A DNA stretch of 64,000 bases, from positions 16,926,001 through 16,990,000 of the forward strand of contig NC_043020.1 in NCBI RefSeq assembly GCF_006345805.1, written 5' to 3'. The position numbers were made by a program, and so were the translations under genes. This document shows positions 338 to 52,932 of the stretch, piece by piece. The notes beneath the pieces were generated by a model. That model had not been told where the DNA came from and ran no database searches. It worked only from the letters and a program-made list of their open reading frames with translations. This stretch comes from Octopus sinensis (lineage: Eukaryota). Position 1 is the stretch's first letter, and each line of letters starts with the position of its first letter.

Positions 338-1091
338 TTAAAACTATAAAATAAATTCAAGTTTGGAGTCAATTTTTCCTGGGCTTTGTGAATTTCTTTT
401 GTAATTCACTTACCACCACTGACTTTAAAAGAGCAGTAGATTGGCAGAATTGTTGAGAATGTCATACAAGATACCTTGTGATGTTAGTCCCAGCTCTTTG
501 TGTTTTGAGCTTGTAGACATTTTTTCTCTCAATCTGTCTTGGAAGCCCTGAGGAAACAAAACATCATGGTTACTTCCCTTCCTTCTTTTACTGAATGCCA
601 AACAAATTACTGTGACCTTACTGGTAAGTGCCTCTAACACTATCTACACCACTGATGCATATAAACATCTCTTACCTACAACTATAAAATCCTATATGGA
701 TGGTTAAAAGATGCATGTAAGCATCTTGAGAATTTCACAGCATAGCAAGTAGTACACATATAAGCATCTCTGGGATTTTATGGTTATCTGTGAGCAACAC
801 ATATATGCAGGGCTGGTGTTAAGCCAATTTGAAAGGTTTTGTAGAGCAGAGGGCCCTGTTGACAATTCTCTAATTGGCCTTGTATATATGCACTGATGCT
901 ATAGATAAGAGATGGTCTTATGCATTATGATATGGATAGTAATTAACAATCAACTTGCTAAAGACAACCAATTATCGGTCAACTTGTTAGATATAGTAGC
1001 CAAATTTTCTTCAAATCATACCTTATTACTGCTCATTGGAATTTCAGAGAATCATGACTGATCCATTATAATATATAACTGCAATATTATT

Positions 1092-1397
1092 TTTCGTTTT
1101 TGGATTTGGTTTGCAAGATTCTTTATGAGTTTGTGTGTTGAAGCATATTCTGTTGTGTCTGGGGAGAGTCATTTTCTTTTTGTGCCTTATAATATAACAC
1201 ACTCACCGGTAAAATTTCCACTTTTTTTTCTTATTTTTATTGTCCTAAAATTTTCTTTGCATCTTACAACCGTTAAGATGCAACGAAAATTTTAGGACAA
1301 TAAAAATAAGAAAAAAAAGTGGAAATTTTACCAGTGAGTGTGTTATATTATAGGGCACAAAAAGAAAATGACTCTCCCCAGACACAACAGAATATGC
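1092..1397. repeat. Long palindromic insertion (arms 1143-1266 and 1274-1397)
   Basis: ~124 bp near-perfect inverted arms with a 7 nt spacer. The direct repeat tgcaatattatt occurs at 1080 and 1395. Confidence 0.9.
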
Positions 1398-1659
1398 AAT
1401 ATTATTGTTGTTTAACAACACAATAAGTTGTACACCACTTTTAAAGTCATCAAATTTCTATAAAACAATTTGTTTAGTGCATAAATTATTCTACGCTTAA
1501 AGGAGTATACTTTGAATAATGATATTTTGTGATCCTGTGTTGAAACTAAAGCAACTATATTATGGAAAAGTCATTAAATAATTTTCAGGTCCTTGAAATA
1601 AACTTAAAAGAATCAATAACTTTAGGCACTGTTAAATGGTTTACCATGATGTACTTGCT

Positions 1660-2255
1660 TGCATGCATGGCTGTGTGGATAGAAGTTTGCTTACCAACAA
1701 CATCCCACTGCATGGTATCTTAACCCTTTTGTTACTGTATTTATTTTGAGATGCTCTGTATTTCTTTAAATTACTTTAAATATAACAAAGAATTTAGTAA
1801 AATAAATTAGTTATCATTAAGCTAGTGTTAGGAGCATTGATTGTAACTAAGGTTTGGTGGAAGATTTTAATTCAAAACTTATGAAAATAAAACATTTGTA
1901 CTCAGAGCCAGAGCCGGTTTCAGCCAGGTTGGTAACAAAAGGGTTAGGCAAGTGTCTGCCACTGTAGCCCTGGGCAGACCAAAATTTTGTGAGTGGATTT
2001 GGTAGCCAGAAACTGAAAGAAGCTCATGATGTGTGTATGTTTGTGTGTGTGCATATGTGTTTGTCCTCCATCACTGCTTCACAACCAGTGCTGGTTTGTT
2101 TACATCTCCATAACTTAGCAGTTCAGCAAAAGAAACCCATGGAGTAAGTACTAGGCTTACAAAAAAAATAACAGAGGTTAATTTGTTCAAGTAAACCCTT
2201 CAAGGCAGTGTCCCAGCATGGCTGCAGTCCAATGACTGAAACAAGAAAAAGATAG
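1660..2255 (+). mobile_element. SINE family A copy interrupted by MITE D
   Basis: The head ggctgtgtgg..., the body ggcaagtgtct and the tail cagcatggctgcagtccaatgactgaaacaag match other copies. Confidence 0.8.
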
Positions 2256-2916
2256 TATAATTATATACTATCTAGATAATTCCAACTATTGTTTTTCCCT
2301 TATAGTTTCTATAATATATAATTTAGTTCCTTCATAATAGAATTTATAGGAAAACACAATCATGTCTATAATGTGTATAGCAAGGATAAATTTGTGATGC
2401 TATACAAATTGGTAAGGAATTTCATTTTCTTAGAAATTTTTTCTTATATGATAAAGAAATAAAGTACAAAAAGAATGTTTTCTGTGTTGTTTTTTTTTCT
2501 TTTCTGAAACAAATTCTTTACCCAACTAATTCATCAGTATAGGTAATTATTTCCAGAATAAAGCATTTAAAAATACATGTCTGTTGCAAAGCATATTTCT
2601 AATGGACTTTTCTTCAAAACAAAAATTCTTCCTCTAAGTGTAACTGAATTGTTTTGTTTTACAATAAAAACTATAATTATAAATATTGTAATTTAAAATT
2701 ATGAAGTATAGTATCAGATAGAAAAAAGTGGAGTTTTATATAATAACTAATTGGAATAAATCTGTTGTTTTTTAAGAACAATTTTAAAAACATTTTCCCA
2801 CTACTTCTATTTTGGCAACAGGTCGAGCTTGTTGCCATCGCAGTCATGTGACTGATGACGTAGTTAAGTATCCCGTGCGTGTGAACCCCGCATTCTGTCT
2901 CTACACGGGGATTGAA

Positions 2917-4855
2917 ATGTCGCAGAAAGGGGGACAACATGGCGGCGCCCATTACCGTACACATGCTGAGAGCAGCAGACCGAAGCCTGGATTGAACCCC
3001 AACCTTTCAGTGTCTTCTAAATCCACACAGAAAGTATTTCAGGACTGTTTAGCTGCAACAACCGATAGCCAATTACCAAACGGAAACACTACTGTAGATG
3101 CTTTCCAAGATGGCGACAGAGGTACAGAGTCGTATAGCATAGAAGCAGTCGGAGAGCAACAACACAACAATAGAACTGGTCGGTCTCCATCCGTGTTCTC
3201 TCTATCAAATTCTGTGCTTCATAGAGCAACCAAACGACAGAAACGACGGTCTGTTAGCAATACATCAGTACAATCACTGCGAGGCAATAACATTCGCAGT
3301 AACAGGATTGTAACAACACAGAAACAGAAGAGAAAGAAGAAGCTCGAACAAGTCAATAACAAAAGCAATTTGATTGATTCCAATTGCGAAAGTTCCGACA
3401 TCAGCAATAACTCCATAATAGTCATAGAGCGCTTAAATTACCTCTCATCTGAACCTTCATCCTCTGATGATGATGACGAAGAAGAAGTGGCTGATGGAGA
3501 CGACGAGGCAGAACACGAAATCGAAGATTTACACAGCTATGGTGAACACTCTGTGGCTGGAAGTAACGGCGAGTGGCTCAAGTCACGAATTCGGAACTTG
3601 AATTCTGTAGTGGATTTTAATTTGGACCAATCTCACACCGACGATCAGGAAGTGGTGGATTCCTTAGAAGAGTTGGGCTCCACTAGTAAAGCGGCTAAAG
3701 ACATTGTTGTTGATGAATTTTTCGCCGACGAACATCTTGCCGTCAGTCCAGAAGAGCCTGGGAGCGTCATGCCTCCTCTGACAGGTGCCGAACATGTGCT
3801 TGTACCTCCCACAACAGAGTCCATAGCTTTATACAACAACAATAACAAACATGCTACAGACACGGAAGACATTGTAACGACTTCGGGAACGAGCCCGGAT
3901 AGATCTCGCACTGCTAAGATTTCCGTGGCCGTCGGTGATATCGAAACCGGTTCTACTTCTCGACTATCGCAGATTACTCCTCCACCGGATTCCTCTCCAA
4001 CATCTACCAACACTCCATCTGCCACAACTACTAATGTGTTTTTAGTTGATAATTCGGAGGAGCCTTGTTCGTCGTCCTTCCCCGGTCTTTCATCTAGTAG
4101 TTATTCTACAACAACTACTTCAAATTCTTCATCATTAGAAGCATCTCTGTTGGAATTCAGACGGGTCGGAACCGACAAAAGCAATACTCTTATGACACCT
4201 CAAGAACTGGAGAGTATGCCGGACCAAGGTATAGAATTCGAAGAATCTGTTGGTCCGAAACAGGAAGTCATTAGTCCATCTTCGTTGACCACGTGTAGTA
4301 CCACATCACCATCATCTTCCTTGTCATTATCTGATTCACTGTCAGTCCTATCAGATTCTCCACAATCCCATCAGAAATTGTTAGCTAGTTCCTCTTTACT
4401 AGAGTCACCGTCGCGAACCACCACCCCAACACCTAACAATAACAACACCAACATTATCACTACCGATCATTCTTCAAACCACGATGTCAAACCTATATTT
4501 ATCGATTCCTCCAGTACCAGTACAGGTCTCACGTCGTCTGCCGACACTACCAGCACTACTACTACCACTGCTGGTCTGGATAGTAGTCTCCTCAATGCTG
4601 GTAACTTCACACTGGCCACTATCTCAATATCAACTGACCGAGCCACCAACTCCACTCAGATATTGGTCAACACTAATCAGGGACAACAGTTATATCATAT
4701 AAACACTGCAGACCTCACCCAGCCTCTATCGCTGCCCGTCACTCAGGCTCCACCGACGACTCCCTCATCCTCGGCTACGACTGCCACCAGAACCACGTCG
4801 GCTTCGGCTCCGTTGTCAACCTCCTCACAAACAAACGGTCCTTCGGCACAAACAG
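2917..4855 (+). CDS. ZXDC: ZXD-family zinc finger protein, coding exon 1 (large Ser/Thr-rich, acidic, low-complexity N-terminus)
   Basis: Long ORF (track 2812..4911). A probable acceptor ttttggcaacag puts the exon start at 2822, and the first ATG is at 2917 (MSQKGG). The phase-1 donor ACAG|gtaaa at 4855 joins in frame to the exon at 24361. An upstream exon outside the window could extend the CDS. Confidence 0.8.
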
Positions 4856-18124: not shown

Positions 18125-20140
18125 AAGGCTAGTGATGGGAGCGATGACCTCCCTTGCAAATGTTATATGGATACAAACTGTGTTCGATAGCCAGCTGGAA
18201 AAAATGTTTCCCTGGGGTTATAACAACAGTAATATCATCCTGTATAGGACTGCCAAATTCTGTTGGCATATTTTTGTATTCTTATTCATGTTATCATTAT
18301 TGTTTTTACGTATTTTTGTATTCTTATTCATGTTATCATTATTGTTTTTACGTATTTTTGTATTCTTATTCGTGTAACATTGTCCGTTTTTCCGTCCTTG
18401 TTTTGTATACATTCGAGGCTTTCTTCCAAGGAATCTAATGTGCTTGGCTTAGATTTTCCTTTGGGGCTGGCCAGATCGGAGCAATCTCAAGATTAATCAG
18501 CTGAAATTGTGAGGATGATCCGGTTCTTGACTGAAGATTGAAGGCTTTGAATGTCCCGTTCGTGTTTTTTGTATCATCTTCTAAATGTTTTGCGTCCAGT
18601 TTGTATTTTTCTACATATATATATATAGACACATAAGTGTGTGACAGTGTGTGTACACTTATACAGCAGGTTTCACAATGTTTTTGTCCACCAAATCTCC
18701 TTATAAGGTATTGGTTGGCCCAGAGCTATTGTAGAAGATACTTGCCCAAGGTGTTGCTCAGTGGGATTGAACCTAAAAACACATGGTTGAGAAGTAAACT
18801 TTATAACCACACAGTCATGCTTTTGTTCTTTAATATCTCGCACTAAGGCCTTGACATTGGATAAATAATTTTGCAAATGCAATGCAAAGTTGCAGATACC
18901 AAAATATTGTTGCTCATGAAAACACAGACTGAACGTTTGTGATTTATTAATGGTTTTTGTAAATGCCAGAATTAGAGGAAATTACTTTGCATAGTGAATG
19001 GTAATATTGAGTCAGAAGACTCTAAACAAATTCAAAGAAAATATACACATGTATATAAAAAAAAAAAAAAAAAAAAACTAAACCATAGTGCACCTTTAAT
19101 GTTCCTCATAATAATTTTTTTATAATCAATGAAATTCCTCTGAATGAAACAAGTCTGTAACTGAAATCACCAGAACTTGTTCCATTCATTAAACCATTTT
19201 TTGAAAAAAATTCAAGCTTCTCAGTAATATAATAAAAGCTTCAGTTATGATTCTATGCCGAAGGCAGTTAGAAATGTGTTTCAAGATATTACTCTCCTCT
19301 CCAGTATTCCTCTCCTATCGCAGGAGTGGCTGTGTGGTAAGTAGCTCGCTAACCAACCACATGGTTCCGGGCTCAGTCCCACCGCGTGGCACCCTGGGCA
19401 AGTGTCCTCCGCTATAGCCCCGGGCCGACCAATGCCCCGTGAGTGGATCTGGCAGATGGAAACTGAAAGAAGCCCGTCGTATATATGTATATATATATAT
19501 GTGTATGTGTGTGTGTTTGTCCCCCCAGCATCGCCCGACAACCGATGCTGGCGCGTTTACGTCCCCGTCACTTAGCGGTTCGGCAAAAGAGACCGATAGA
19601 ATAAGTACTGGGCTTACAAAGAACAAGTCCCGGGGCCGATTCGCTCGACCAAAGGCGGTGCTCCAACATGGCCGCAGCCAAATGACTGAAACAAGTAAAA
19701 GAGAGTATCACCCTCTCTTTCTCCATTACGCTGCTTGTACTGATTCTATTCAATCTAATTACCAACAACCATCAGGTAGCTCCCCCTCTCTCTCTCCCCA
19801 CCTCTCACTAAACTAAGTTTAACCCACCCACTTTATATAACGGATAAAGATCCTTACCCAAGTCACATAGACTCAAAAGGGCCAGTTTCATGGTTTCTGT
19901 GGTATATATATTCCCCACCTGGACAGGATGCCAGTCCATCGAAGGATTATTCTTTTATTTGTTTCAGTTACTTGACTGTGGCCATGCCGGAGCACCGCCC
20001 TCAGTTGAGCAAATCAACCCCAAGACCCATTCCTTGTAAGCCCAGTACTTAAAGACGGGGACGTAAACACACCAGCATCGGCCGCCAAGCGATGCCGGGG
20101 GAACAAACACAAACACACAAACATATACATACACACACAC

Positions 20141-20193
<53 letters not shown>

Positions 20194-22163
20194 AAGGCTA
20201 GTGATGGGAGCGATGACCTCCCTTGCAAATGTTATATGGATACAAACTGTGTTTCGATAGCCAGCTGGAAAAAATGTTTCCCTGGGGTTATAACAACAGT
20301 AATATCATCCTGTATAGGACTGCCAAATTCTGTTGGCATATTTTTGTATTCTTATTCATGTTATCATTATTGTTTTTACGTATTTTTGTATTCTTATTCG
20401 TGTAACATTGTCCGTTTTTCCGTCCTTGTTTTGTATACATTCGAGGCTTTCTTCCAAGGAATCTAATGCGCTTGGCTTAGATTTTCCTTTGGGGCTGGCC
20501 AGATCGGAGCAATCTCAAGATTAATCAGCTGAAATTGTGAGGATGATCCGGTTCTTGACTGAAGATTGAAGGCTTTGAATGTCCCGTTCGTGTTTTTTGT
20601 ATCATCTTCTAAATGTTTTGCGTCCCAGTTTGTATTTTTCTACATATATATATATAGACACATAAGTGTGTGACAGTGTGTGTACACTTATACAGCAGGT
20701 TTCACAATGTTTTTGTCCACCAAATCTCCTTATAAGGTATTGGTTGGCCCAGAGCTATTGTAGAAGATACTTGCCCAAGGTGTTGCTCAGTGGGATTGAA
20801 CCTAAAAACACATGGTTGAGAAGTAAACTTTATAACCACACAGTCATGCTTTTGTTCTTTAATATCTCGCACTAAGGCCTTGACATTGGATAAATAATTT
20901 TGCAAATGCAATGCAAAGTTGCAGATACCAAAATATTGTTGCTCATGAAAACACAGACTGAACGTTTGTGATTTATTAATGGTTTTTGTAAATGCCAGAA
21001 TTAGAGGAAATTACTTTGCATAGTGAATGGTAATATTGAGTCAGAAGACTCTAAACAAATTCAAAGAAAATATACACATGTATATAAAAAAAAAAAAAAA
21101 AACTAAACCATAGTGCACCTTTAATGTTCCTCATAATAATTTTTTTATAATCAATGAAATTCCTCTGAATGAAACAAGTCTGTAACTGAAATCACCAGAA
21201 CTTGTTCCATTCATTAAACCATTTTTTGAAAAAAATTCAAGCTTCTCAGTAATATAATAAAAGCTTTAGTTATGATTCTATGCCGAAGGCAGTTAGAAAT
21301 GTGTTTCAAGATATTACTCTCCTCTCCAGTATTCCTCTCCTATCGCAGGAGTGGCTGTGTGGTAAGTAGCTCGCTAACCAACCACATGGTTCCGGGCTCA
21401 GTCCCACCGCGTGGCACCCTGGGCAAGTGTCCTCCGCTATAGCCCCGGGCCGACCAATGCCCCGTGAGTGGATCTGGCAGATGGAAACTGAAAGAAGCCC
21501 GTCGTATATATGTATATATATATGTGTATGTGTGTGTGTTTGTCCCCCCAGCATCGCCCGACAACCGATGCTGGCGCGTTTACGTCCCCGTCACTTAGCG
21601 GTTCGGCAAAAGAGACCGATAGAATAAGTACTGGGCTTACAAAGAACAAGTCCCGGGGCCGATTCGCTCGACCAAAGGCGGTGCTCCAACATGGCCGCAG
21701 CCAAATGACTGAAACAAGTAAAAGAGAGTATCACCCTCTCTTTCTCCATTACGCTGCTTGTACTGATTCTATTCAATCTAATTACCAACAACCATCAGGT
21801 AGCTCCCCCTCTCTCTCTCCCCACCTCTCACTAAACTAAGTTTAACCCACCCACTTTATATAACGGATAAAGATCCTTACCCAAGTCACATAGACTCAAA
21901 AGGGCCAGTTTCATGGTTTCTGTGGTATATATATTCCCCACCTGGACAGGATGCCAGTCCATCGAAGGATTATTCTTTTATTTGTTTCAGTTACTTGACT
22001 GTGGCCATGCCGGAGCACCGCCCTCAGTTGAGCAAATCAACCCCAAGACCCATTCCTTGTAAGCCCAGTACTTAAAGACGGGGACGTAAACACACCAGCA
22101 TCGGCCGCCAAGCGATGCCGGGGGAACAAACACAAACACACAAACATATACATACACACACAC

Positions 22164-33193: not shown

Positions 33194-33536
33194 ATTTAAA
33201 TGTTTCAGATCACTGTTAATCTTTATCAAGTATTTCTGTTGACATTCTCAAGAGTAAGGGTCATCTTCCAGGATGCTAAATATCTTTTATGACCTCACAC
33301 ATAGCTTAAAAATGACTAAATCTAATCTGGCTCACACCATAACAGACCAAAGTAGGTTCTTAACTCTTACCTCAATTTTCTAGTTTTTGCACTGATTCCT
33401 TCAGCATCAAAATATTTAAATTTATTTGTACTTAAAACTTGCATTGATAAAAACTAAATTAATTTTTCCTTTAATTCTCCCTTTAATGCTAATTGCCAAA
33501 GAAATAAAATTTTTTGATCAACTTTCTTCTATTCAG

Positions 33537-33732
33537 ATGTCCTGTTGATGGCTGTAACAAAGTTTTCCTTTCTCCTAACTGCATGGGCTCTCATGCCCGT
33601 GTTCATCAACAGGACCGAGATGACCTGGTCTGCAAGTATGATGGCTGTGGTAAAGTTTTCAATAAAGTCTGTCGTCTTAAACAACACATGCGCTGTCACA
33701 CTGGCGAGAAACCATATCAGTGTCGTGTTGAT
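33537..33732 (+). CDS. ZXDC: ZXDC-like exon 6, fingers 5-6 and start of 7
   Basis: Acceptor attcag, phase 2 in. Encodes CPVDGC...HARVH and CKYDGC...HMRCHTGEKPY. Donor gtaagt. Confidence 0.93.
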
Positions 33733-33874
33733 GTAAGTATTTTTAACCAGTACAATTTGTGTCAGTTATAAAGTATCAAGCTACCAACCAATAGTCAAAT
33801 CCTTAAAATCTTTAAAAATGTTTTAGCCCGAAGGCTGCGGCCATGCTGGGGCACCACCGCTTTTTACTTTAATT

Positions 33875-34167
33875 AGATTGGTGTTCAGTTGTATCGAACA
33901 GGCTGCTAACCGACAACTATTCACAGGCGTGATCCCACTACTGCTCGACACCGGGCCTTTTGCCTGCTGCGTTTCCGCCCTGGGCCAAAGCCACCCTTAG
34001 ACAACCTGGTCCTCATGAGCTCCCTCTCCAGCACCATATTGATGCCAAGCCTAGCGCGGACACCCGATCGCCATAGAAGACCGACTACCAGGACTCCCAT
34101 CCTCAAACCGGCCAACCAACCAAGCCTCCGAGTAGCTAGATTACAGGAGCACGCCACAACTCCCAAA
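33875..34167 (-). ncRNA. 7SL / SRP RNA, near full-length copy (probably a retrocopy or chimera) in a ZXDC intron
   Basis: The minus strand reads GTGGCGTGCTCCTGTAATCTAGCTACTCGGAGGC...GATCGGGTGTCCGCGCTAGGCTTGGCATCAATATGGTG...GGAG loop...CCAGGTTGTCTAAGG...GGCCCAGGGCGGAAACGCAGCAGG...CAGTAGTGGGATCACGCCTGTGAATAG. This is collinear with metazoan 7SL (Alu domain, helix 6 GGAG loop, helix 8 GAAA loop). No oligo-T terminator follows directly. Confidence 0.92.
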
Positions 34168-35351
34168 TGTCCAAACAGCTACTGTATTTAGGGCTGGTTT
34201 ACTATCCACAGAGACCCTGAGCACTTAAAAGATTATGGTGACCCTATACATATGTAATTCAAAATATGAACAATAATAAACCATAAAATAAAACAAAACT
34301 AACAGTAAGATGGAAAATAATGTTTATTTTTATATATACTTCCACTTTATTTATATTTGAAAAGTGTTCTGCTGCTTTTTTAATTACAAAGTCTTTGATC
34401 AGCTCCTCACTATGACAACATATACACTTTGAAATTATGTTTCTGTTCAAGTAAACCACTGCAAATATTAGTTTAGCAAATTTAAAGTGATTTCTTTTGT
34501 GCTGTAAACCATTTACCATTTCTGTGGTGCCCCACTTCCCTTGATGCCTTATTAATTACATTATAACACATTAATCATATAAATAAGATAAGCTCCATCT
34601 AATAGACATCATCACCATCATTGTTTTTACATTTACATTATATATACATACATCATCATCATCGTTTAAACGTGCTAGCATGGGTTGGACGATTTGACTG
34701 AGGTCTGGCGAACCAGATGGCTGCACCAGACTCCAATCTGATCTGGCAGAGTTTCTACAGCTGGATGCCCTTCCTAACGCCAACCACTCCGAGAGTGTAG
34801 TGGGTGCTTTTACGTGCCACCGGCATGAGAGCCAGTCAGGTGGTACTGGCAGCAGCCATGCTAAAATGGTGCTTTTTATGTGCCACCTGCACAGGAGCCA
34901 GTCCAGCGGCTCTGGCAACAACCTCACTCGAATGTTTTTTTCACGTGCCACCAGCACAAGTGCTATTAAGGCAACACAGGTAACGATCTCGCTCAAATGG
35001 TGTTTTTAACGTGCCATCGACACAGAGGCCAGCTTGTTGCTCTGGCAACGATCTCACTCGTGTGGTACTCTTAGCACTCCACTAGCACGGATGCCAGTCA
35101 TTGAGTTTGATTTCGATTTCCTCCTAATATTAAGAACTACATAAAAATAAACAGAAGCAAAAAAAAACATATATATATATATATATTTGTCGATGAAAAG
35201 TGACAACTGTGATTGTCACACGCCGATGACGGGTCAATACCCAGAAACTATATATATATATATATATCAGATGTATGTAAAAGACCCTACACATTAGATA
35301 TTTCCTGTTTAACTTAATCCTTCATCTTTGTTTCCTTTTATCTTTTTCCAG

Positions 35352-35526
35352 GGTTGTTCTTGGGCCTTTGCAACGGCCAGTAAATTAAAACGCCACATGA
35401 GCAAACATACTGGTGTTCGAAAATGGCTGTGCAATGCATGTGGCAAAGCATTCTTGCGAGCTGAACATCTGAAAGGTCATTTAGTAACTCACAGTGGAAC
35501 AAAACCATTCCAGTGTCCAGTAGATG
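35352..35526 (+). CDS. ZXDC: ZXDC-like exon 7, fingers 7-8 and start of 9
   Basis: Encodes GCSWAFATASKLKRHMSKH and CNACGKAFLRAEHLKGHLVTH. RAEHLKGH is ZXD-typical. Splice sites are canonical. Confidence 0.95.
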
Positions 35527-36485
35527 GTAAGTAACTTGCTGGATCACGTCAACATCCATTGCAATCACAATTATATTTTATTTTCTTAATGTTTAGTCAC
35601 AGGTGTGGCTGTGTGGTTAAGAAGTCTCTTTTCATAACAAAATGATTTCAGATACCATCCCACTGCTTGGCATTTTTAGCAGGTGTCTCCTTAGACTTTA
35701 ACTATTCAATTCTAGAATTTTTTGTCCAGTTTCTTCCACAGTGTTTATACACACATGTACACACACATACACACATGCACTATCAACAGGCATATTCCTG
35801 AGAGATTGTTTTATCCGTAATGCTGCTTGTACTCATGGGACATTCCGAGAATTCTCCATCTGAGGTTCTTTAGATGAATAGATGCACACTTGGGCATGAA
35901 GCAGTTCAACCAACACACCAACTTGATCACATATTTACAAACACTGCGAACCCTCTTAATTCAAAGAGTTTTGATGCTTTGTAAGCAACCAGCTTGAACT
36001 CTCTTAAGAAGAACTGAAGCAACACCAAAAAAAAAATCATTCATTGATACATACATACATGCCAAAATATTCTACCTGTCTTATGTTCAAATTGACCAGA
36101 TCAGCCTCTCACACCAACCCTACAGTGCCATTGAATGCAAAAGGATTAATTATGAATTGTCATAATTGCAAATATGCAAATTAGGTATCCATTTTGGTGC
36201 TAGCCTACTTATTTTATTAAATTTGTCATAAAGACAGTACAAAGATTAGGTAGCTTTGCGGGCTGGACAAGACTTTAATGAAATGAATGATAATGATACA
36301 AGAATGATAAGGATGGGAGAAGACAGAAAGCGCCCGCCGACCCTCGTTGGTGCTAGCCTCCTGGATGACTACTTTATATAGCAACTGATTTCTGCAAGTG
36401 TGTAATATCATTCATTAAAATCATTCAAAAACTTTACTACTACCGGTTTTTTTTCTCTCTCTCTCTCTTCCCATCTTGTTTTTAG

Positions 36486-52215: not shown

Positions 52216-52932
52216 GGTGGGGGTCCCATGTAGTCAACTTAGTAATTTTTACACTTATTTTCATTTTAACCCTTTAGCATTTAAACTGACCATATCTGAC
52301 CCAAATATTCTACCTGCTTTATTTTCAGATTGGCCAGATATGACTTTTTGCACCTACCCTAGAATGTCATTCTAAAATTAAACAATCAGCGGTGGTGCCC
52401 CAGCATGGCCGCAGCCTTCAGGCTAAAACATTTTTAAGGATTTAACCCTTTAGCATTTAAACCGGCCATATCCGGCTAAAAGTATTCTGCCTGTTTTATG
52501 TTCAAACTGGCTAGATCTGGTCTCTCACACCAACCCTCCTCTGAAATTGATGGCCTTGTGCCAAAATTTGAACTCAATAAATATTTATTTCAGGGTTTCG
52601 TTACACTGAGCTCGACTCAGAGTTTTCTTCCTTCTGTGCAGTGGGGGTGGATTGATAAAAATGAAGTCCCAGTCAAATACTACGGTTTGTATCACTGTTT
52701 CCCACCTTCTCCCTAGAATTCCTGGCTTTGTGTCTATGTAAGAAATTACTATTGCTGGAGTTTTTTTTTTCTTTTTCTTTTCTTCTTTTTTTTTGTTTTT
52801 TTTTTTTCAAATTGCCAACCTTCTCTACTGGGAACATCATTAAATGTTCCACTTTCAGAAACTTTGACGTCTTTCACTGAAACGCTACTTCTTATGGCTG
52901 CCTATTATTACTATTATCATTAATATTATTAC

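What the first reader, a model, noticed from the sequence alone, without database searches (positions are those of the whole stretch)
33796..34167. Near full-length 7SL RNA fused to a retroposon 3' stem-loop tail: candidate 7SL-headed SINE or template-switch chimera
Seen: on the minus strand a ~293 nt 7SL with preserved pairing (GGGAGT/GCTCCT, GAG-ggag-CTC, GCG-gaaa-CGC) has no T-run terminator. It continues through AATTAAAAGTAAAA into AGCGGTGGTGCCCCAGCATGGCCGCAGCCTTCGGGCTAAAACATTTTTAAAGATTTTAAGGATTT. The same tail, starting at the same base, occurs alone at 52388-52443 and resembles the SINE A 3' end (ggcggtgctccagcatggccgcag..). The first T5 lies just after the AGCC-TTCG-GGCT hairpin, so a Pol III transcript would include it. 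Established: SINEs borrow LINE 3' tails, and 7SL-derived SINEs are known from few lineages, mainly Alu/B1. Inference: this is an independent 7SL-plus-LINE-tail retroposon, or a one-off chimera like U6/L1. No clear TSD was seen. A weak PSE-like motif (34224-34242) and TAAATA (34185-34190) upstream leave open a real gene whose terminator was disrupted.
Basis: partly seen in the sequence, partly recalled or inferred. Interest (0 to 1): 0.75.

Follow-up and report, generated by a model that had tools for sequence, protein, structure and literature searches.

The report
7SL retrocopy fused to LINE tail
This is a decayed copy of the 7SL RNA gene joined to the 3' end of a jumping gene (LINE), likely made when the LINE's reverse transcriptase hopped from its own RNA onto 7SL RNA; the genome holds dozens of such separate fusions, so it is an ordinary by-product, not a new SINE family.

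Summary
A full-length 7SL (Rfam Metazoa_SRP, 204.5 bits) lies at 33873-34167 (-). It has no T-run and runs through an 11-nt filler into a 65-nt two-hairpin tail (33797-33861).

The tail is the whole 3' UTR module of an RT-encoding LINE. It starts 12 nt after the LINE's stop codon.

Of 41 7SL copies read in this genome, 10 end in T-runs. Eight of those carry a conserved upstream motif, most in a cluster on contig 5. The other 31 are followed at once by retroposon sequence:
- four different tail types (A 5, B 6, C 6, D 3)
- whole SINEs (8)
- partial SINEs (3)

Junctions differ between copies, and tail type does not follow the 7SL tree. The window copy has no twin, no target-site duplication and none of the genes' upstream motif, and it scores among the lowest. 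U6 (8 of 12 loci read) and a tRNA carry the same tails.

Best reading: one of many independent chimeric retrocopies made by template switching. This kind is already described for U6 with L2/RTE LINEs in vertebrates. It is not a 7SL-headed SINE family, and not a gene with a damaged terminator. Expression could not be tested.

The parts
33873..34167 (-). Full-length 7SL (SRP RNA) copy, decayed. The first two bases differ from sibling copies.
   Evidence: Rfam RF00017, 204.5 bits, model 1-299/299. Private branch 0.035 in the tree. Terminated genes score 245-252 bits.
33862..33872 (-). Junction: TT (likely a remnant of the 7SL U-tail) plus a 9-nt A-rich filler, AAAGTAAAA, of unknown origin
   Evidence: Sequence. 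Sibling chimeras have 0-10 T and different A/G-rich fillers.
33797..33861 (-). 65-nt LINE 3' tail module ('tail A')
   Evidence: Identical start in 15 LINE 3' ends and 16 other loci. In the LINE it begins 12 nt after the stop codon of the RT open frame.
33837..33860 (-). Tail hairpin 1 (GCGGU-G-GUGC / CCCA loop / GCAU-G-GCCGC)
   Evidence: Fold. Pair counts over tails A, B and C: 85.8% of cells paired, one pair changed on both sides.
33825..33836 (-). Tail hairpin 2 (AGCC-UUCG-GGCU)
   Evidence: Fold. 93.6% of cells paired, 3 of 5 pairs changed on both sides among tail families.
33814..33818 (-). T5 run inside the tail, between the hairpins and the terminal repeats. It would likely stop RNA polymerase III before the repeats.
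   Evidence: Sequence. Tails B and C have no run of four or more T. The effect on Pol III is inferred from general knowledge.
33797..33813 (-). Terminal short repeats, AAAGATTTTAAGGATTT (family consensus AAGGATTTTAAGGATTT)
52388..52443 (+). Second tail-A copy, not attached to LINE body or 7SL. It abuts a truncated copy of an inverted-repeat element.
33508..33732 (+). Context: C2H2 zinc-finger exon-like open frame on the opposite strand, followed by GTAAGT at 33733-33738. The chimera starts about 65 nt further on.
   Evidence: Open frame. zf-H2C2_2 at E 3.8e-08 but 33.7 bits, below Pfam's cut-off of 40. Exon status inferred.
35313..35534 (+). Context: next C2H2 zinc-finger exon-like open frame. 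The chimera lies between the two.
   Evidence: zf-H2C2_2 E 3e-14, zf-C2H2 E 3.1e-07

Best explanation
This locus is a decayed retrocopy of full-length 7SL RNA fused to the 65-nt 3' tail of a LINE, most likely made in one retroposition event in which the LINE's reverse transcriptase switched templates.

Inferred steps:
1. The LINE protein binds the two-hairpin tail of its own RNA.
2. It primes reverse transcription on the terminal AAGGATTT repeats at a nicked target.
3. It copies the tail.
4. At the 5' foot of hairpin 1 it leaves that RNA and continues on the 3' end of a 7SL RNA that still carries two U.
5. It copies 7SL almost to its 5' end.

Shown directly:
- the anatomy of the locus
- the origin of the tail in an RT-encoding LINE
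- the many sibling fusions with other tails and other small RNAs
- the lack of descendants

The product is probably inert. It lacks the upstream motif of the real 7SL genes. A T5 inside the tail would likely end any Pol III transcript before the terminal repeats that LINEs of this type need.
For: 1. Anatomy: full-length 7SL, then TT, then a 9-nt filler, then the tail, all in one orientation.

2. Tail origin: in 15 of 31 distinct young tail-A loci the tail follows the same sequence (..ACTAGTGTAGCTCATTC). In L009 that sequence is the end of an open frame with RVT_1 hits (E 7e-16 and 6.8e-10), with stop codon TAG 12 nt before the tail.

3. Recurrence with different partners. Of 41 distinct 7SL copies:
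- 10 end in T-runs, 8 of them with a shared upstream motif
- 31 run into retroposon sequence: tail A 5, B 6, C 6, D 3, whole SINE 8, partial SINE 3

4. Independence:
- The junctions differ in number of T and in filler.
- On a tree of 40 7SL bodies, tail A needs 3 changes for 3 rows, B 6 for 6, C 5 for 6.
- The window copy sits in an 8-row clade (SH-aLRT 98) with tails A, B, C, a whole-SINE chimera and the T-run copy L024.

5. Retroposition as one unit: siblings with an intact tail but 5'-truncated 7SL start at 7SL position 31 (L044, L055), 21 (L046) and 208 (L004).

6. Other Pol III RNAs:
- 8 of 12 U6 loci read carry tail A, B or C or SINE sequence after the U6 T-run.
- One tRNA (Rfam 31.2 bits) + TTTTTC + tail A.

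7. Tail-only insertions show that the tail alone is a retroposition unit. Direct repeats abut the tail in 5 of 16 loci tested, two of them 31-33 bp long.

8. The hairpins are kept among tail families: 88.6% of cells paired against at most 43% when slid. Hairpin 2 has 3 of 5 pairs changed on both sides.

9. Precedent: U6 chimeras with L2 and RTE LINEs and their partner SINEs. The authors conclude that stringent LINEs form only chimeras by template switching (PMC4476161, passages read).
Against: - No target-site duplication flanks the window copy. Its insertion as one unit therefore rests on its siblings. 11 of 16 tail-A loci tested also lack one.
- Template switching itself was not observed. 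RNA ligation before reverse transcription would leave the same product.
- The 9-nt filler AAAGTAAAA matches neither 7SL nor the LINE 3' UTR and is unexplained.
- Why the switch falls so precisely at the foot of hairpin 1 is unexplained.
- TAAATA at 34185-34190 lies at about the distance of the TATA-like box of the real genes, so some Pol III transcription is not excluded.
- No related genome was available for an empty-site test (one search states that the genome has no relatives here).
- Only 41 of at least 87 first-look 7SL candidates were read.
Confidence: 0.83

Rival explanations
1. Member or master of a 7SL-headed SINE family. The 7SL head would supply a Pol III promoter, the LINE tail would supply recognition by the LINE, and the unit would multiply as such.
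For: - Head and tail are of the kinds that SINEs have.
- Five 7SL + tail-A copies with unrelated flanks exist.
- L022, L023 and L025 share a 7SL variant and near-identical tail-B junctions.
- 7SL-derived SINEs arose independently in hagfish by chimera formation (PMC7245038, abstract).
Against: - The five tail-A junctions all differ and use two 7SL variants.
- Tail type does not cluster on the 7SL tree.
- The closest junction copy is 92% identical, with another filler.
- The whole genome gave only 87 first-look 7SL candidates, against 1083-3956 for the real repeats.
- The head is the whole 7SL, not an Alu-domain derivative.
- The T5 inside tail A would likely end a Pol III transcript before the terminal repeats. 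In the eel LINE UnaL2 these repeats are required together with the stem-loop (PMC1636434, Introduction passage).
Confidence: 0.04
2. A 7SL gene or older 7SL pseudogene into which a tail-only LINE copy later inserted at the terminator. This would be two events at the DNA level.
For: - Tail-only insertions are common: 16 of 31 young tail-A loci are not on a LINE body, some with direct repeats.
- TAAATA lies about 18-23 nt upstream of the 7SL start.
Against: - The genes' upstream motif is absent.
- The locus lies singly between two zinc-finger exon-like frames, far from the gene cluster.
- The same adjacency occurs at 31 of 41 7SL copies and 8 of 12 U6 loci, with several tails. Chance nesting does not explain this.
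- 5'-truncated 7SL with an intact tail (L044, L046, L055, L004) fits a single reverse-transcription event.
Confidence: 0.04
3. Same end product, different joining step. 7SL RNA and a cut-off 65-nt tail RNA would be ligated as RNA, then the joined RNA would be reverse-transcribed by the LINE. This route has been proposed for U6/L1 (recalled; paper not read here).
For: - Donor breakpoints are bimodal. They fall at the 5' end of SINE RNA or within 0-5 nt of the foot of hairpin 1, as if a discrete tail RNA with its own 5' end existed.
- Half of the young tail-A copies are tail-only.
Against: - No ribozyme or other Rfam family matches the tail region, even at E up to 10.
- The variable A/G-rich fillers and variable T counts fit untemplated addition at a template jump at least as well.
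- Nothing here tests for a free tail RNA.
Confidence: 0.1

Closest known systems
U6 snRNA chimeric retropseudogenes with LINEs (U6/L1; U6 with L2 or RTE LINEs and their partner SINEs in platypus and Anolis). PMC4476161, passages read.
   Same: - A small Pol III RNA copy at the 5' side joined in the same orientation to the 3' end of a LINE or its SINE.
- The joint lies at the small RNA's U-tract.
- 5' truncation of the small RNA occurs.
- Stringent LINEs give only chimeras.
- This genome has U6 chimeras of the same build.
   Different: - The partner here is full-length 7SL.
- The donor piece is nearly always the same 65-nt module rather than LINE 3' pieces of variable length.
- At least four tail families take part.
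- The window copy has no target-site duplication.
7SL/LINE-1 chimeric insertions in mammals. bioRxiv 10.1101/2025.02.02.635956, passages read.
   Same: 7SL RNA joined to a LINE 3' part in one insertion. The paper reports this as a rare, newly recognised class.
   Different: - There the LINE is L1 (relaxed type, poly(A) tail) and the cases are few.
- Here the LINE has a hairpin-plus-repeat tail, and chimeras make up 31 of 41 7SL copies read.
SINE1: 7SL-derived SINEs (Alu, B1, hagfish SINE1-1_EBu). PMC7245038 abstract; PMC13023118 abstract.
   Same: 7SL-derived 5' part. In hagfish there is also a 3' part taken from a non-L1 LINE partner, and the family was born by chimera formation.
   Different: - Those are multi-copy families with a 7SL head that has lost its centre (about 183 nt, per the PMC13023118 abstract).
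- Here the 7SL is whole.
- Each fusion is a separate event and no family was found.
Stringent LINE/SINE pairs that share a 3' tail (eel UnaL2 and its SINE). PMC1636434, Introduction and discussion passages.
   Same: A conserved 3' stem-loop followed by short terminal repeats. The same tail is shared by a LINE and by non-autonomous copies.
   Different: - No sequence relation was tested.
- Here there are two adjacent hairpins.
- The LINE clade was not determined. It is CR1/L2-like only by a recalled C-terminal motif.

Membership tests
Functional metazoan 7SL (SRP RNA) gene | Matches the Metazoa_SRP covariance model over its full length | tested here: met
   204.5 bits against a gathering score of 70, model 1-299/299. 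This is lower than the terminated genes at 245-252 bits.
Functional metazoan 7SL (SRP RNA) gene | Pol III terminator (T-run) directly after the 3' end | tested here: not met
   Only TT, then AAAGTAAAA. The terminated copies have T5 to T14, or T-runs broken by a single C.
Functional metazoan 7SL (SRP RNA) gene | The upstream motif shared by this genome's terminated 7SL genes | tested here: not met
   GGTTTAAGTAATTAAATTCG has 0 matches with up to 3 mismatches in the window. The upstream sequences were compared.
SINE (7SL-derived, SINE1) | Head derived from a Pol III-transcribed small RNA | tested here: met
SINE (7SL-derived, SINE1) | 3' part shared with a partner LINE | tested here: met
   Tail A is the 3' end of an RVT_1-encoding element.
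SINE (7SL-derived, SINE1) | A family of dispersed copies descended from one another, with the same head-tail junction and shared diagnostic changes | tested here: not met
   The 5 tail-A chimeras have 5 different junctions and two 7SL variants. Tail type does not cluster on the tree. The best other junction match is 92% identical.
SINE (7SL-derived, SINE1) | Transcribed by Pol III from an internal promoter into a mobilisable RNA | tested here: inconclusive
   Only assembled contigs were available and none bridges the junction. The T5 at 33814-33818 would likely cut off the terminal repeats (inference).
Template-switch chimeric retropseudogene (U6/LINE type) | Small-RNA copy at the 5' side and LINE 3' end at the 3' side, same orientation, joined at the small RNA's 3' end | tested here: met
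Template-switch chimeric retropseudogene (U6/LINE type) | Target-site duplication around the whole chimera | tested here: not met
   Window copy: none (p about 0.78). Siblings L025, L026 and L045 have plausible ones. 11 of 16 tail-A loci tested also lack one, so the feature is weak for this LINE.
Template-switch chimeric retropseudogene (U6/LINE type) | Recurrent independent events with variable junctions and several acceptor RNAs | tested here: met
   31 of 41 7SL copies, 8 of 12 U6 loci, and 1 tRNA
Template-switch chimeric retropseudogene (U6/LINE type) | Joined by the reverse transcriptase jumping between RNAs, rather than by RNA ligation or nested insertion | not testable with these tools
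   Needs a retrotransposition assay or RNA 5'-end mapping.

The most novel reading that the evidence does not exclude
The locus is a snapshot of SINE birth in progress. A 65-nt two-hairpin LINE tail acts as a portable cassette that is stitched again and again onto 7SL, U6 and tRNA transcripts. One of the 7SL fusions with a T-run-free tail (types B or C) is, or is becoming, the master of a whole-7SL-headed SINE. That would be the first such SINE outside vertebrates, and the first without the central 7SL deletion.
Probability: 0.06. Interest if true: 0.7.

Novelty: new member of a known kind. Interest (0 to 1): 0.35.

Why it matters
The locus itself is most likely an inert by-product, but the set it belongs to is useful.
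- In this genome, every retrocopy of 7SL and U6 that was read is fused to a LINE or SINE 3' end, and none has a poly(A) tail. This extends to an invertebrate-sized repeat landscape, and to 7SL, the rule drawn from vertebrate U6 copies: stringent LINEs copy cellular RNAs only by switching templates (PMC4476161).
- The fusions have exactly the head-plus-tail build from which SINEs are thought to arise. The set therefore gives a natural series of failed or untested proto-SINEs.
- It also gives a sharply defined donor breakpoint at the foot of the tail hairpin, which could be tested at the bench.
- For annotation, it warns that most 7SL and U6 hits in this genome are chimeric pseudogenes.

Tried and rejected
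- **Expression.** The run search found no run holding half or more of the stretch's words, and all runs are kept as contigs. When laid, two runs guessed to be RNA cover the 7SL body at very high depth with pieces 95-99% alike, as expected from the true 7SL. Nothing bridges the window's junction. Two other runs hold a 699-nt contig identical to 33700-33826 that breaks inside the tail. This says nothing either way about transcription of the chimera.
- **Ribozyme or known RNA in the tail.** No Rfam match in 33700-33900 even at E up to 10.
- **Target-site duplication.** None found for the window copy.
- **Earlier notes of this scan.** None exist for this genome.
- **Literature.** A search for a 15-nt tail motif found 0 papers. 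A search for '7SL' + 'SINE' + 'octopus' found 11 papers, 10 listed; none of the listed titles or abstract openings concerns such chimeras.
- **LINE clade.** Pfam gives only RVT_1. The protein atlas gives RVT_1 clusters without a clade name. 'CR1/L2-like' therefore rests on a recalled C-terminal motif and on the tail's architecture.
- **Orthologous empty site.** No related genome is held.
The PSE-like motif has no counterpart upstream of the real genes. TAAATA is at a plausible distance but stands alone.

Full report
**What is there**

On the minus strand, Rfam's Metazoa_SRP model matches 33873-34167 over its full length (positions 1-299 of 299, 204.5 bits, gathering score 70, E 1.7e-54). The 7SL ends ..CAATCTAA. 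It is followed by TT, by the 9-nt filler AAAGTAAAA, and then by AGCGGTGGTGCCCCAGCATGGCCGCAGCCTTCGGGCTAAAACATTTTTAAAGATTTTAAGGATTT, which ends at 33797.

The 37-nt core of this tail recurs at 52388-52424 (+) with one mismatch. None was expected by chance.

The tail folds as two adjacent hairpins followed by AAAAC, a T5 and short repeats.

**Where the tail comes from**

The genome (2.72 Gb, 13,516 contigs; the window is contig 24, 16,926,001-16,990,000) gave about 1,100 first-look candidates for the tail.

I read 31 distinct young tail-A loci (36 rows, less one tail-C row and four duplicates):
- In 15, the tail follows the same sequence. In L009 that sequence is the end of an open frame with two RVT_1 hits (E 7e-16 and 6.8e-10). 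The stop codon lies 12 nt before the tail. Tail A is therefore essentially the whole 3' UTR of an RT-encoding LINE.
- Its clade was not settled. 'CR1/L2-like' rests on a recalled C-terminal motif and on the hairpin-plus-repeat architecture. Pfam and the protein atlas give only RVT_1.
- The other 16 loci start at the same base (give or take 0-3 nt) but have unrelated upstream sequence. One is a tRNA plus TTTTTC (Rfam tRNA 31.2 bits). One is another tail.
- Of these 16 loci, 5 have significant direct repeats abutting the tail, two of them 31-33 bp long. They are tail-only insertions.

Two related tails recur in the genome:
- Tail B: ..GGCGGTGCCCCAGCATGGCCACAGCTCATGAGCT.. with AATC-type repeats.
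- Tail C..GGCGGTGCTCCAGCATGGCCGCAGTCAAATGACT.. with GTAAAAGA repeats. This is the 3' end of an abundant SINE and occurs 8 times in the window.

I aligned 27 tails of types A, B and C and counted pairs:
- The two hairpins are paired in 88.6% of cells, against at most 43% when partners are slid.
- Hairpin 2 has 3 of 5 pairs changed on both sides.
- These changes lie between three families, so they represent few events.

**The 7SL copies of the genome**

A search with the 7SL body gave 87 first-look candidates, of which 40 were scored. I read those plus one found through the junction search, 41 distinct copies in all.

Ten end in T-runs:
- Eight share the upstream motif ..GGTTTAAGTAATTAAATTCG... 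Seven lie in a cluster at contig 5, 117.015-117.041 Mb, and one (L036) lies at 118.57 Mb. The cluster genes and L036 tested score 245-252 bits.
- Two further copies (L024, L041) end in T14 and score 240 bits.

The other 31 run straight into retroposon sequence:

| 3' partner | Count | Notes |
|---|---|---|
| Tail A | 5 | window, L026, L044, L045, L004 |
| Tail B | 6 | |
| Tail C | 6 | |
| Tail D | 3 | a fourth tail with ATG repeats |
| Whole SINE | 8 | starting at its first base |
| Partial SINE | 3 | |

None has a poly(A) tail.

**One family or many events?**

- The five tail-A chimeras have five different junctions: TT+AAAGTAAAA, TTTT+AAAGAC, TT+AC, CAGAAAC, AAAAGAGAAAC. They carry two 7SL variants.
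- A maximum-likelihood tree of 40 7SL bodies was built, leaving out L004 as too short. Tail type does not cluster: A needs 3 changes for 3 rows, B 6 for 6, C 5 for 6.
- The window copy lies in an 8-row clade (SH-aLRT 98) with tails A, B and C, a whole-SINE chimera and the T-run copy L024. L024 is a candidate source gene.
- Homology between the window locus and its siblings begins at the 7SL 5' end and stops at the tail end. The flanks are unrelated.
- The best other match to the window's junction is 92% identical, with another filler. The window copy therefore has no detectable offspring.
- Several siblings keep the tail but have 5'-truncated 7SL, starting at position 21, 31, 31 and 208. That is the signature of one reverse-transcription run from the tail inwards.

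**Other small RNAs**

Rfam U6 gave 48 matches over the cut-off. I read 12 loci; the other loci of the tandem array were not read one by one.
- Four look like genes.
- Eight carry retroposon sequence after the U6 T-run: tail A (L099), tail B (L096), tail C (L094), a SINE 3' part (L095, L097) or a whole SINE (L100, L121, L122).

Together with the tRNA case, the process is general for Pol III transcripts.

**Mechanism**

Shown: the parts, their origins, the recurrence and the independence of events.

Inferred:
1. The LINE protein binds its tail and primes on the terminal repeats. For the eel LINE UnaL2, both the stem-loop and the 3' repeat are required (PMC1636434, Introduction passage).
2. It copies the tail.
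3. It then switches to the 3' end of a 7SL RNA.

This is the route described for U6 chimeras with L2 and RTE LINEs and their SINEs in platypus and Anolis. There the authors conclude that stringent LINEs form only chimeras (PMC4476161, passages). 7SL/L1 chimeras were recently listed as a rare class in mammals (bioRxiv 10.1101/2025.02.02.635956, passages).

Left unexplained:
- The A/G-rich fillers.
- The sharp donor breakpoint. Jumps start either at the 5' end of a SINE RNA or within a few bases of the foot of hairpin 1, as if a discrete tail RNA existed. RNA ligation before reverse transcription cannot be excluded.

**Is the window copy alive?**

Probably not.
- It lacks the genes' upstream motif.
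- It scores among the lowest of the 7SL copies scored with Rfam (204.5 bits; only L045 at 200.8 and L003 at 192.9 are lower).
- It has a private branch of 0.035.
- It lies antisense between two C2H2 zinc-finger exon-like open frames, about 65 nt past one that is followed by GTAAGT.
- The T5 at 33814-33818 would likely end a Pol III transcript before the terminal repeats. Tails B and C have no such run. This may be why the abundant SINE uses tail C (inference).

Expression could not be tested, because only assembled contigs were available and none bridges the junction.

**Comparison and verdict**

It works like, and qualifies as, a template-switch chimeric retropseudogene. The exceptions are the missing target-site duplication, which 11 of 16 tail-A loci tested also lack, and the joining step, which cannot be tested here.

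It fails the defining test of a SINE family, which is descent of copies from one another. It also differs from known 7SL-derived SINEs, which have lost the centre of 7SL (PMC13023118 abstract; PMC7245038 abstract). It fails two of three tests for a working 7SL gene.

Searches for '7SL' + 'SINE' + 'octopus' and for a tail motif found no paper on such fusions in this kind of genome. That the repeats recall cephalopod SINEs is my recollection and was not tested.

It is a new member of a known kind. The locus itself is of modest interest. The set of fusions is somewhat more interesting as a natural series of proto-SINEs.

Noticed in passing
window 52265-52388 and 52444 to about 52560: Copies of a very abundant element (at least 3956 first-look candidates) of about 230 nt with terminal inverted repeats (TTAACCCTTTAGCATT ... 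AATGCTAAAGGGTT), MITE-like. The tail-A copy at 52388 follows position ~124 of one copy. The rest of that copy is missing, and a second copy starts right after the tail.
   Followed up: partly
G000 contig 5, 117.015-117.041 Mb (L028-L030, L033, L034, L037, L038): Cluster of 7SL genes on both strands with a shared upstream motif and T-run terminators. These are the likely working genes (245-252 bits).
   Followed up: partly
G000 contig 1, 141.92-141.95 Mb (L102-L120): Tandem array of U6 genes spaced about 1.1-2.5 kb apart. Dispersed U6 copies elsewhere are mostly chimeras with the same LINE or SINE tails.
   Followed up: partly
L008:1422-1565: tRNA (Rfam 31.2 bits) followed by TTTTTC and tail A. 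This is a tRNA-precursor/LINE-tail chimera.
   Followed up: partly
L017 and L064, around position 1500: Tail-only insertions of 65 nt flanked by unusually long direct repeats (33 bp and about 31 bp).
   Followed up: partly
junctions in L004, L026, L039, L045, L055 and window 33862-33870: A/G-rich filler of 2 to about 31 nt between the small RNA and the tail, matching neither partner. It could be untemplated addition or short mixed tails on the acceptor RNA. Unexplained.
   Followed up: no
L035, L095, L097: One 7SL chimera and two U6 chimeras start at the same internal point of the SINE (..CCCCGTCACTTAGCGGTTCGG..). This may be the 5' end of a shorter SINE subfamily.
   Followed up: no
window 19652-20001 and 21675-22024: The same pair of C-type tails occurs twice, 2023 bp apart, which suggests a local duplication.
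   Followed up: no
window 33508-33732 and 35313-35534 (+): Exon-like open frames encoding C2H2 zinc fingers. The chimera lies antisense between them.
   Followed up: partly
L024 (G000 contig 5, 125284462-125284757): 7SL copy of the same variant as the window copy. It ends in T14 and has a TATA-like box upstream but not the cluster's motif. It is a candidate source gene for the 8-member clade.
   Followed up: partly
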